Assembly: GCA_000165345.1 (NCBI GenBank)
Contig: CM000435.1
Location: 256,001 to 320,000, forward strand
Reading direction: 5' to 3'
DNA length: 64,000 bases
A program made the position numbers. Within the stretch, counting starts at the first letter, position 1. Each line of letters opens with the position of its first letter. This document shows, one piece after another, positions 31,301 through 34,300 of this stretch.

Positions 31301-34300
31301 AATGAAATATTGTACAATAGGGAATTTTTAGTTCAAGAAAATGAAGATTTAAAGCATTTAAATAAAGAAATTAATGAAAAGATGGAGTTAATATCCAAGG
31401 AAAGGGATAGAGTAATCATGGAAAAAAATGATTTACAAAATGAAGTAAATGAAAGAAGAGAAGAGAATGCTCGCTTAGCAACAATAGTTGAGGAGTTATC
31501 AGAGAAGAGAAAAGATTTTGAGAATACTGTTTTCGATTATAAATTAAGAATTGATGTATTAGAGTCGGAAAGTAAAGATAAATCACATCAAATTGAAGTT
31601 CTTACAAATAGTAATGATCAATATAAAGAAAAAGAGACTAGTTATGTTAAACAATTGGATGAGAAAATACAGACTCTTGATAAATTAAAAAAAGAATTAG
31701 ATATTTTACGAAAGGATAAGAGTAATACAATTTGTAGTTTGGAGGATAGAATTAAGATGCTTGATATTAGCAACAAAAAGAGTGAAGAGATCATATCAGA
31801 ATTAACCAAGAAGAATGAAGAATTATTTAGAAAGAACAATTTGAACAATGAAATTAGTGAAGAAAAGAATGAAGCAATTGCAAAAAATATCGAGTTGATT
31901 GAAATTAATAAAAATATGCAAGAGCAAATTAATGAAAAGATTAAAGAAAATCAAGAGTTATTAAAAGAAATTAAATTAAAAAGTCAAGCTTTGAATGATG
32001 GAGAAAATAGGTTTAAAAAAATCTTATCTGAAAAGGAGGAGATCATTAATCAACTTAATCAAGATCTTGATTATGCTCAAAAGCAGATGAAAAGTTTAAG
32101 AATGAATGAAGAATCGGGATTAGAAAAGATTAATCAATATATTAAAGAGATTGAATCCATTGAATTAGAGAAAGAATCTCTTAATCAACATATCCAAGAT
32201 TTAAATTTAAAATGTTTTAAATTTGAAACTGCTCGTAACTACTTAGAATCTAAATTACGCAATTATTTGGAAAATCACGGGCTAAAAAGTTTAGAGTTTG
32301 AAATTAATGATAACGATAGTAATGACAATAATTCGGAAGTGAAAAATAAATTTATTGGTCATGGTATTGATATAATTATGGAAGAGTTTAGATGTTTGAA
32401 GGAGAATAATGAAAAGAATGAATCAATTATTAAAGAAAAGGATGAAGTAATTGAAACTATTTCAAAGGAAAAAGAAGAGAAAATTGAATCCATAATTAAA
32501 GAAAAGAATAAAGAGATTGAAATCATTTCAAAGGAAAAAGAAGAAAAAATCGAATCCATAATTAAAGAAAAGAATGAAGAAATTGAAATTATTTCAAAGG
32601 AAATTGATGCAATTAATAAAGAAAGAAAGGAACAAAAGTTCTTGAACAACTGGAAGAATTGCAGAAAATTATTACTGAAAAGGAAGAAATTATGGATTAC
32701 TCAAAAAGAAAAAACTGAGTTAGAAATCTCCCTAGAGAGAAAGAAGAAGAATTTAACTTGGTTATTATGGAAAAGGAAAAAGAGAAAAACGATGAATCCA
32801 AAACCAAAATTAAGTATTTAGAAGAGGAATTTGCTATGATAATTAAAGACAAAGAAGAAGAATTTGAAACAAGAATTAAGGAAATGATGAAAGAAATTGA
32901 ATCCATACAAATTAAAAAAGATGAAGAAATGGAATATCGCTTAAAAGAGAGAGATGAGGAAGTAGAAATTATTATTAGAGAAAAGGATGAGAAGATTCAA
33001 AACATTCTAAAGGAAAAGTATGAGGAAATTGAATCAATTATTAAAGAAAAGGATGAAGTAATTGAAACCATTTCAAAGGAAAAAGAAGAGAAAATTGAAT
33101 CCATAATTAAAGAAAAGAATAAAGAGATTGAAATCATTTCAAAGGAAAAAGAAGAAAAAATCGAATCCATAATTAAAGAAAAGAATGAAGAAATTGAAAT
33201 TATTTCAAAGGAAATTGATGCAATTAATAAAGAAAAGAAAGAAACAAAAGTTCTTGAACAACTGGAAGAATTGCAGAAAATTATTACTGAAAAGGAAGAA
33301 ACTATGGAATTACTCAAAAAAGAAAAAAATGACTTAGAAAGTCTTCTAAGAGAGAAAGAAGAGGAATATAACTTTGAAAGATTGGGAAAAGATGATCATA
33401 TCACAAAGTTGGTCAAGGAAAAACAGAATTTAGAATCAGAAATGAAAGCCAGGGATGAATATTTAAAAGACATTATCAGAGAGAGAGATGAAATTGAAAT
33501 TGTTAGAAATCATCTTAATCAGTCAAATCATCAAAATGAACTTTTAAGGACCGAAATTGTCAAGTTGGAAAATACTATTTCAAATCTTCGTCTTGAAAAT
33601 AATCGATTAAGCGAAAGTATTCAAAAGCTCGAAGCTGACAATATACAAATCATTAAAAATACTGAGAGATCTCAACTTTTAACCCATGATTCTCAAAGAA
33701 GTCCAACAAATAGTCTTGAGTTTAATTCAAATAATGCAAAACAAATGTATATTCAAAGTCTACAAAATGAAATCAATGAATTAAGATCATTAAATAGTGA
33801 TTTAGCTGAGAGATTATCAGAATTGGAAGTATCTATGATTCAACAATCATCATCAGAAAGATCTTAATTCATTAATTCTTACATAATTTTCTTTCATTTT
33901 TTCACCTCTAGTATAATTCATATTAATTTTTTTTTCAAAATATTTCTATTAAATAAAAATATATATTCTTTTTTTCTTATTATTTTCTAATTATATTATT
34001 AATATCCCTTTCTCCACTCCTTTACTCCATTTAACTTTAAAGACTCATGATCCAAATATCTTCAATTTAGTAATTTTTTTTTTGTATCCCTTCTATTTTC
34101 AACTCCTTAATTAGTATTCTTTTATTCAAGTTTCAATACATCTTAAATTATTCTTTCATTCATTGAATTTACTAATTAAAATCATTTTTTTTTATTCTTC
34201 AAATCACGCTTTATAGTGGTACCACTTGCATGTTTTTTGAGCGGGTTCATTGCATGCATGCATACACGAATTTTGATGATTAAAATTGCGAGGAAAAAAA

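What the first reader, a model, noticed from the sequence alone, without database searches (positions are those of the whole stretch)
32407..33253. Coiled-coil gene carries a near-identical 240-nt internal duplication; the upstream copy has four homopolymer deletions that break the reading frame
Copies at 32407..32640 and 33020..33253 differ by one substitution over about 210 nt, which points to very recent duplication or gene conversion. Downstream of the identity block, copy 1 lacks single A residues at four positions relative to copy 2 (net -1). This is exactly where the 777-aa and 369-aa track ORFs are out of frame with each other. There are three explanations: a homopolymer assembly error, a genuine pseudogenising frameshift, or a polymorphic slippage-prone region.
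Basis: seen in the sequence. Interest (0 to 1): 0.5.

Follow-up and report, generated by a model that had tools for sequence, protein, structure and literature searches.

The report
Assembly-error frameshifts in a duplicated coiled-coil gene
The internal duplication in this Cryptosporidium parvum coiled-coil gene is real and old, but the four missing bases that split the gene occur only in this assembly and are almost certainly local sequence errors, so the gene is an ordinary intact 1127-aa ORF.

Summary
Window 32419..32621 and 33030..33232 are identical except for one base. Similarity runs on to 32759/33374, and there copy 1 lacks four single bases, so the frame goes 2>1>0>2>1. This splits one gene into a 777-aa and a 369-aa ORF.

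The window is Cryptosporidium parvum. The gene lies between a bromodomain gene and an FPL/CLEC16A-like gene.

In the telomere-to-telomere assembly of C. parvum IOWA II-BGF, 24 kb around the gene matches the window, apart from two short intergenic indels and a cluster of seven differences inside 113 nt (32621..32733). Those seven are the four missing bases plus three substitutions. There the gene is one 1127-aa ORF.

C. hominis (1127 aa), C. meleagridis, chipmunk genotype I and C. ubiquitum also have single ORFs with all four bases.

The downstream 369 codons are open and highly conserved, which does not fit a pseudogene.

Verdict: a local sequencing or assembly error cluster (about 0.88).

The duplication is ancient. 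It is present in all four of those species and absent from C. canis. It stays near-identical within each species by gene conversion, so it is not recent.

Interest is low.

The parts
30488..33867 (+). One coiled-coil protein gene, intact at 3384 nt / 1127 aa in other assemblies, here split by the error cluster. It is syntenic between a bromodomain gene (25786..29844) and an FPL/CLEC16A-like gene (34391..37966).
   Evidence: Restoring four bases gives a 1127-aa ORF. C. parvum BGF L006 14703..18086 is a 1127-aa ORF that differs from the repaired protein at three residues, all inside the cluster. Single-ORF orthologs occur in four species.
32419..32759 (+). Duplicated module, copy 1. It is 341 nt here and 345 nt in the intact sequence. 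It encodes ...ESIIKEKDEVIETISKEKEEKIESIIKEK...VLEQLEELQKIITEKEE.MELLKKEK..LE.L.REKEEEFN.
   Evidence: Alignments. In BGF, copy 1 against copy 2 gives 345 nt, 8 mismatches and no gaps.
33030..33374 (+). Duplicated module, copy 2 (345 nt). It is identical in the window and in BGF.
   Evidence: the BGF copy 2 segment equals the window copy 2 segment.
32621..32733 (+). Error cluster: seven differences from the same-strain T2T assembly within 113 nt. A base is missing after 32621, 32695, 32702 and 32723. 32630 is G instead of A. 32732-33 is CT instead of TA, which can also be read as +C and -A.
   Evidence: MAFFT of window 15786..39840 against L006. The gaps are private to the window in a seven-sequence alignment.
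32622..32821 (+). Out-of-frame tail of the 777-aa ORF (…RKEQKFLNNWKNCRKLLLKRKKLWITQ…PKLSI*), a product of the first missing base.
   Evidence: Three-frame translation.
32758..33867 (+). The 369-aa ORF, which is the true C-terminal third of the gene. Its TTG 'start' is only the first start-like codon after the frame-1 stop at 32716.
   Evidence: The C-terminal roughly 45 residues are nearly invariant across six Cryptosporidium species.
32760..33029 (+). Spacer between the two modules (…LVIMEKEKEKNDESKTKIKYLEEEF…EKIQNILKEKYEE), conserved in C. hominis, C. meleagridis, chipmunk genotype I and C. ubiquitum.
   Evidence: Protein alignment.
32411..33214 (+). Degenerate 33/66-nt (11/22-aa) periodic repeat array in which the duplication is embedded.
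   Evidence: Tandem Repeats Finder: period 66, 11.9 copies, 64% matches. See also repeat finder families D1-D5.

Best explanation
The window is Cryptosporidium parvum (an IOWA-like sequence, probably chromosome 7). The gene at 30488..33867 encodes a conserved 1127-aa coiled-coil protein known only from Cryptosporidium. It contains an old intragenic duplication of a 345-nt module. The two copies lie 615 nt apart and are kept nearly identical within each species by gene conversion.

The four missing bases and three substitutions at 32621..32733 are a local cluster of base-calling or consensus errors in this one assembly. They sit inside the repeat, where assembly and short-read polishing are least reliable. 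The organism makes one full-length protein. The 777-aa and 369-aa ORFs are artefacts.

Shown:
- The lesions are private to this assembly.
- They are extremely clustered.
- The gene is intact in the same strain and in four other species.
- The paralogs evolve in concert.

Inferred:
- The private lesions are errors rather than a real mutation. No reads could be inspected.
- Which sequencing technology or assembly step caused them is unknown.
For: (1) Same strain, intact gene. The upstream bromodomain protein is encoded identically on CP141124.1 of GCA_035232765.1. That is the C. parvum IOWA II-BGF T2T hybrid assembly, annotated with Iso-Seq evidence (PMC12179316). The next gene there is a single 1127-aa ORF.

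(2) Clustering. Across 24 kb, the window and that assembly differ only by a TA indel (16818-19), an AA indel (22277-78) and seven changes within 113 nt at 32621..32733. There are no other SNPs. With nine events in 24,055 nt, the chance that seven fall in one given 113-nt stretch is 1.8e-15, or about 4e-11 after allowing for all positions. An Illumina-derived contig (SRR5007564, L002) matches the window exactly over the next 14.7 kb, so the window is otherwise accurate.

(3) Private gaps. All four gaps are absent from BGF copy 1, from copy 2, and from copy 1 of C. hominis, C. meleagridis, chipmunk genotype I and C. ubiquitum. The syntenic gene is a single ORF in every one: 1127, 1081, 1039 and 1072 aa.

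(4) Not over-polishing. BGF copy 1 keeps copy-1-specific bases interleaved with the four extra bases. So its intact frame does not come from copy-2 reads being polished onto copy 1.

(5) Constraint downstream. The 369 codons after the break are open. From the region's composition, the chance of that is about 2e-17. The C-terminal roughly 45 residues are nearly invariant across six species. That means the region is translated.

(6) Precedent. The reannotated 2004 IOWA II reference carried 114 'pseudogenes'. Of these, 113 were repaired as intact genes in a long-read assembly (PMC8744675). Repeats and homopolymers are named as typical causes of false frameshifts (PMC6742220).

(7) The duplication is real. 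It is present in the T2T assembly and in four other species. In addition, 21 short-read (Logan) contigs from independent runs all begin at window 33272, 30 nt before the first copy-specific base. A k=31 de Bruijn graph is expected to break there.
Against: - No reads of the window's own assembly could be inspected, and I could not identify which assembly it comes from.
- The short-read contigs break at the repeat, so they do not show the state of 32621..32733 in independent samples.
- The T2T paper's list of frameshift variants between IOWA II assemblies names no gene in this part of chromosome 7 (PMC12179316). Either the window is not the 2004 reference, or variant calling missed this repeat.
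- The 203-nt identical part of copy 1 and all of copy 2 carry no errors, so 'repeat means poor polishing' does not by itself explain why the errors fall where they do.
Confidence: 0.88

Rival explanations
1. The lesions are real. In the parasite line behind this assembly, a recent complex mutation truncated the protein at about residue 712 (plus a junk tail), leaving the C-terminal third untranslated or separately expressed.
For: The sequence as given does carry the lesions. Different IOWA lines are known to differ by about 143 variants, 108 of them indels (PMC8744675). No reads were available to exclude it.
Against: Seven changes in 113 nt against no SNPs in the surrounding 24 kb would need one extraordinary multi-lesion event. 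No stop or indel has accumulated in the 1.1 kb downstream. No gene with the truncated products is on record in a collection of 153 billion gene positions, although this is weak evidence. The protein is conserved as a single ORF across the genus.
Confidence: 0.06
2. The locus is a slippage-prone, polymorphic (phase-variable) tract, and both in-frame and out-of-frame alleles circulate in the parasite population.
For: Three of the four gaps fall in A runs, and the gene is purine-rich and repetitive.
Against: The affected runs are only 4, 2, 6 and 4 nt long. Three substitutions accompany the gaps, which slippage does not produce. Equal or longer A runs nearby, such as A6 at 32544-32549 and 32709-32714, are unchanged between the window and BGF. 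Five independent assemblies of four species plus BGF all have the in-frame state.
Confidence: 0.04
3. The frame is restored in the mRNA or at the ribosome, either by a small intron spanning the lesions or by programmed frameshifting or transcriptional slippage. A full-length protein would then be made from the sequence as given.
For: Formally, 41 GT..AG pairs would join the two ORFs without a stop, for example 32638..32723, which is 86 nt.
Against: The candidate donors (GTTCTT, GTTAGA, GTATTT, GTAATT) are poor. The acceptors lie in purine runs with no pyrimidine tract. The 'intron' would remove sequence that is coding and conserved in copy 2 and in every ortholog. The Iso-Seq-supported T2T annotation has an intronless 3384-nt CDS (PMC12179316). 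Recoding would need four separate shifts, none of them conserved.
Confidence: 0.01
4. The window is right and the T2T assembly is wrong, having been over-corrected by polishing copy 1 with reads from copy 2.
For: At five of the seven sites, BGF copy 1 equals copy 2.
Against: BGF copy 1 keeps five copy-1-specific bases interleaved with the restored ones. At the fourth site it has AAAA where copy 2 has AAAG. C. hominis, C. meleagridis, chipmunk genotype I and C. ubiquitum, from separate projects, all have the four bases in copy 1.
Confidence: 0.01

Closest known systems
False 'pseudogenes' of the 2004 C. parvum IOWA II reference that were repaired by long-read reassembly (Baptista et al. 2022, PMC8744675; Baptista & Kissinger 2019, PMC6742220)
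   Same: An apparently split or frameshifted gene in one C. parvum assembly is a single intact ORF in a newer assembly of the same strain and in sister species. The lesion lies in repetitive, A-rich sequence.
   Different: I could not show that this window comes from the 2004 reference, nor that this gene is among the 113 listed. No supplement was available, and the gene identifiers I guessed gave no paper hits.
The same gene in C. parvum IOWA II-BGF (CP141124.1, L006 14703..18086, 1127 aa) and its C. hominis 30976 ortholog (JTAI01000004.1, L011 2098..5481, 1127 aa)
   Same: Same locus, same synteny, same duplication and same length. BGF is identical to the window outside 32621..32733.
   Different: They carry the four bases that the window lacks, and they read E715, N748 and L750 where the minimally repaired window reads G, S and P.
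Concerted evolution of intragenic repeats by gene conversion or unequal exchange
   Same: The two modules are more alike within a species than either is to its positional counterpart in a distant species. In the 108-nt core, within-species identity is 94-97%, while C. parvum against C. ubiquitum is 73-76%. In the upstream 132 nt, within-species identity is 99-100%, while C. parvum against C. meleagridis is 91-92%.
   Different: No conversion event was observed directly. The tract boundaries are inferred from identity steps only. Between the closest pair, C. parvum and C. hominis, the 3' core still groups by position (98.1% for copy 1), so conversion there is older or patchy.

Membership tests
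Sequencing/assembly artefact (false frameshift) | The lesion is private to one assembly and absent from an independent assembly of the same strain. | tested here: met
   The BGF T2T assembly is identical over 24 kb apart from the cluster and two short intergenic indels, and there the gene is intact at 1127 aa.
Sequencing/assembly artefact (false frameshift) | The differences cluster far beyond the background divergence. | tested here: met
   Seven of nine differences fall in 113 of 24,055 nt. P is about 4e-11 after scanning.
Sequencing/assembly artefact (false frameshift) | Raw reads of the source assembly contradict the consensus, or coverage or quality is low at the site. | not testable with these tools
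   There is no access to reads. The Logan short-read contigs break at the repeat.
Unitary pseudogene | The disabling lesions are confirmed in independent sequences of the lineage. | tested here: not met
   They are absent from BGF and from all four sister species.
Unitary pseudogene | Constraint is relaxed downstream of the first lesion, with further stops or indels scattered along the gene. | tested here: not met
   The 369 codons downstream are open (chance about 2e-17). That sequence is identical to BGF, and the C-terminus is conserved across the genus.
Programmed frameshift / transcriptional slippage | The shift site is conserved in orthologs and the two frames are both required. | tested here: not met
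   Orthologs read straight through in one frame. The window would need four separate shifts.
Phase-variable simple-sequence contingency locus | A long homopolymer or SSR tract whose length varies among isolates. | tested here: not met
   The runs are only 2-6 nt, substitutions accompany the gaps, and five other sequences are all in frame. Variation among many isolates could not be examined.
Concerted evolution of duplicated modules (gene conversion) | The duplication is shared by several species. | tested here: met
   Both modules and the spacer are present in C. parvum, C. hominis, C. meleagridis, chipmunk genotype I and C. ubiquitum. C. canis has a single module.
Concerted evolution of duplicated modules (gene conversion) | Paralogs within a species are more similar than orthologs between species. 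| tested here: met
   Identity matrices. Within species the core is 94-97% identical, against 73-90% between the more distant species. Species-specific residues are shared by both copies.

The most novel reading that the evidence does not exclude
The seven-change cluster is a genuine single complex mutation, fixed in one laboratory-passaged C. parvum IOWA line. It would truncate a genus-conserved 1127-aa coiled-coil protein after about 712 residues, showing that its conserved C-terminal third is dispensable during calf or mouse passage.
Probability: 0.05. Interest if true: 0.35.

Novelty: not a real feature. Interest (0 to 1): 0.1.

Why it matters
The main value is as a quality flag. Anyone using this assembly would wrongly annotate two genes or a pseudogene where the parasite has a single conserved 1127-aa coiled-coil protein. 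The correct model already exists in the public T2T annotation of the same strain.

There is one small biological point. The two 345-nt modules of this gene evolve in concert across at least five Cryptosporidium species. This is a clean small example of intragenic gene conversion in this parasite, but it is not surprising for a repetitive coiled-coil gene.

Tried and rejected
- **Exact-product look-ups.** I looked up the 777-aa ORF, the 366-aa ATG version of ORF2 and the 52-aa frameshifted tail that a window-like short-read contig would give. None is on record. This is only weak negative evidence.

- **Contig break point.** I hoped that the short-read contigs starting at 33272 would discriminate between the two versions. 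They do not. Both versions share the 59-nt stretch 32632..32690 with copy 2, so the de Bruijn break is the same.

- **Homologue searches.** The search with the repaired protein returned only C. canis, C. serpentis, C. muris and C. andersoni. The exhaustive representative search with ORF1 returned only a 242-aa C. hominis TU502 fragment, C. andersoni and a compositional hit. The TU502 contig ends 727 nt into the gene. I reached the close orthologs instead through the neighbouring FPL gene.

- **Protein family.** Pfam gives no family for the protein, only sub-threshold bZIP-like or coiled-coil noise.

- **Intron rescue.** I enumerated the candidates and rejected them.

- **Literature.** There is no held supplement listing the repaired pseudogenes. 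No paper mentions the inferred gene identifiers.

- **Antisense ORFs.** The ORFs at 32359..32649 and 32997..33317 are the stop-poor reverse complement of purine-rich coding sequence, duplicated along with the repeat. They are not genes.

Full report
**Observation.**
Window 32419..32621 and 33030..33232 (offset 611 nt) are identical apart from 32458 T / 33069 C. Similarity continues to 32759 / 33374. In that 3' part, copy 1 has four one-base gaps relative to copy 2, after 32621, 32695, 32702 and 32723, plus substitutions.

Both copies are read in the same codon phase by their ORFs: 30488..32821 (777 aa, frame 2) and 32758..33867 (369 aa, frame 1). The four gaps move the true reading frame 2>1>0>2>1. 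The tail of the 777-aa ORF after 32621 is therefore out-of-frame junk. The 'TTG start' of the 369-aa ORF is only the first start-like codon after a frame-1 stop at 32716. Re-inserting four bases gives an uninterrupted 1127-aa ORF. The duplication lies inside a degenerate 33/66-nt periodic array at 32411..33214.

**What the locus is.**
The neighbouring ORFs are eukaryotic: a bromodomain protein, an FPL/CLEC16A-like protein, a DHX29-like helicase, a CCCH zinc-finger protein and a ZNF598-like RING protein. The repaired protein hits only Cryptosporidium proteins: C. canis at 57% identity, and C. serpentis, C. muris and C. andersoni through the N-terminal roughly 230 aa.

An exhaustive HMMER search of 1.84 billion representatives with the 777-aa ORF found nothing convincing outside the genus. 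Pfam assigns no family. The protein is therefore a long coiled-coil protein of unknown function, seen so far only in Cryptosporidium. Its N-terminus (MTRAPFQSTSPRNLEFLPN…) and C-terminus (…NAKQMYIQSLQNEINELRSLNSDLAERLSELEVSMI…) are well conserved.

**The decisive comparison.**
The upstream bromodomain protein is encoded identically on CP141124.1 of GCA_035232765.1. That is the telomere-to-telomere Nanopore+MiSeq assembly of C. parvum IOWA II-BGF, annotated with Iso-Seq evidence (PMC12179316). There the next gene is a single 1127-aa ORF (L006 14703..18086). It differs from my minimally repaired protein at only three residues, all inside the lesion zone.

Aligning window 15786..39840 with that locus (24 kb) gives the following differences:
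- a TA indel at 16818-19;
- an AA indel at 22277-78;
- seven differences packed into 32621..32733: the four missing bases, G for A at 32630, and CT for TA at 32732-33 (or equally +C and -A);
- no other SNPs.

If the nine events were spread evenly, seven falling in one 113-nt stretch has a probability of about 4e-11 after scanning. The window is otherwise accurate. An Illumina-derived contig (SRR5007564, L002) matches it with no differences over the adjacent 14.7 kb.

**Orthologues.**
I retrieved the syntenic locus from other species through the FPL neighbour. The gene is a single ORF in each:

| Species | Length |
|---|---|
| C. hominis 30976 | 1127 aa |
| C. meleagridis | 1081 aa |
| Cryptosporidium chipmunk genotype I | 1039 aa |
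| C. ubiquitum | 1072 aa |

In a DNA alignment of copy 1 from all of these, plus BGF copy 1 and copy 2, the four gaps are unique to the window.

BGF copy 1 retains copy-1-specific bases interleaved with the four extra bases, and has AAAA where copy 2 has AAAG at the fourth site. Its intact frame is therefore not the result of polishing copy 1 with copy-2 reads.

**Why not a pseudogene, slippage, an intron or recoding.**
- *Pseudogene.* The 369 codons downstream of the break are open, with a chance of about 2e-17 at this composition. They are identical to BGF, and they end in a block that is nearly invariant across six species. This sequence is translated. A real pseudogene would show lesions scattered along the gene, not seven in 113 nt.
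- *Slippage.* The affected A runs are only 2-6 nt long. Equal or longer runs nearby are untouched, and substitutions accompany the gaps.
- *Intron or recoding.* Forty-one GT..AG pairs could formally splice the frames together, but their splice signals are poor. They would remove sequence that is coding in copy 2 and in all orthologs. The Iso-Seq-based annotation has no intron here.

**Literature context.**
The reannotated 2004 IOWA II reference carried 114 'pseudogenes', of which 113 were repaired as intact genes in a long-read assembly (PMC8744675). Repeats and homopolymers are the stated typical causes of false frameshifts (PMC6742220).

I could not establish which assembly the window comes from. 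The T2T paper's short list of frameshift variants between IOWA II assemblies names no gene in this part of chromosome 7. This leaves open whether the window is the 2004 reference. The chromosome 7 assignment is an inference from the C. meleagridis FPL locus tag cmbei_7001150.

**The duplication itself.**
It is real. It appears in the T2T assembly and in four other species. In addition, 21 short-read contigs from independent runs all start at window 33272, 30 nt before the first copy-specific base at 33302. A k=31 graph is expected to break there.

It is not recent. Both modules and the spacer between them are present in C. hominis, C. meleagridis, chipmunk genotype I and C. ubiquitum, while C. 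canis has one module.

Even so, the copies are more alike within a species than across species:
- In the 108-nt core, copy 1 and copy 2 are 94.4% identical in C. parvum, 97.2% in C. hominis, 94.4% in C. meleagridis, 96.3% in chipmunk genotype I and 95.4% in C. ubiquitum.
- Between C. parvum and C. ubiquitum the core is only 73-76% identical, whichever copies are compared.
- In the upstream 132 nt, the copies are 100% identical in C. parvum and 99.2% in C. meleagridis, against 91-92% between those two species.
- Species-specific residues are shared by both copies.

This is concerted evolution, most simply explained by recurrent intragenic gene conversion. The sharp step in C. parvum, from 1 mismatch in 272 nt to 7 in 73 nt in the intact sequence, looks like a conversion-tract boundary.

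**Verdict.**
The biological claim of interest, a frame-breaking lesion, is most likely an artefact of this assembly (0.88). A real lesion specific to this parasite line remains possible (about 0.05-0.06) until reads are inspected. The gene is an ordinary intact 1127-aa coiled-coil gene that is already correctly modelled in public annotation. The concerted evolution of its two modules is a minor, unsurprising point.

Noticed in passing
window 1400..7240: About 5.8 kb has no ORF of 75 aa or more on either strand, in a genome reported as roughly 77-88% coding. GC falls to 19-26% around 4500..7000. There is an (ATATATA)10 array at 6975..7044 and (CCT)9 at 1610..1636. The first 2 kb is strongly C-rich on the + strand, with several short adjacent + strand ORFs (123..1397) that might be a broken or proline-rich gene. 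No Rfam family is found anywhere in the window. I had no comparator sequence for this part.
   Followed up: partly
window 32419..32759 and 33030..33374; L011, L012, L013, L014: The two modules of the coiled-coil gene evolve in concert across at least five Cryptosporidium species. Within a species the copies are 94-100% identical, while between distant species they are 73-92% identical. C. canis has only one module.
   Followed up: yes
window 16818..16819 and 22277..22278: These are the only other differences from the BGF T2T assembly in 24 kb: a TA and an AA length difference, both outside long ORFs. They could be true strain polymorphisms or further small consensus errors.
   Followed up: no
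window 34391..37966 (+) and 37959..42149 (-): The FPL/CLEC16A-like ORF (1191 aa) overlaps the convergent helicase ORF by 8 nt. The BGF annotation gives the FPL gene 1190 aa over a 3571-nt range (L006 18610..22180). That length is not a multiple of three, so it implies a different 3' end or an intron model, even though the DNA is identical.
   Followed up: no
L005 78..4136 (C. canis JAPCXA010000080.1): The C. canis ortholog model (P0001, 1189 aa, 'partial') has a roughly 330-aa Gly/Pro-rich N-terminal extension that is absent from all other species. The listed range does not translate directly (20 stops). The gene model is probably faulty.
   Followed up: no
L001, L003, L004 against window 37063..42000: Other C. 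parvum isolates (DRR729222, DRR729207, SRR31305056) differ from the window by about 34-37 SNPs in 13-15 kb. Nearly all the differences listed lie in the helicase gene (38118..41936), and the FPL protein is identical. Variation is therefore unevenly spread along this stretch.
   Followed up: no
P0006 against window 32426..32626: A 265-aa protein with (EKDKEIEVLRK)n repeats matches only the 11-aa repeat part of the gene (E = 1.7e-5). I judge this compositional or repeat similarity, not homology.
   Followed up: no
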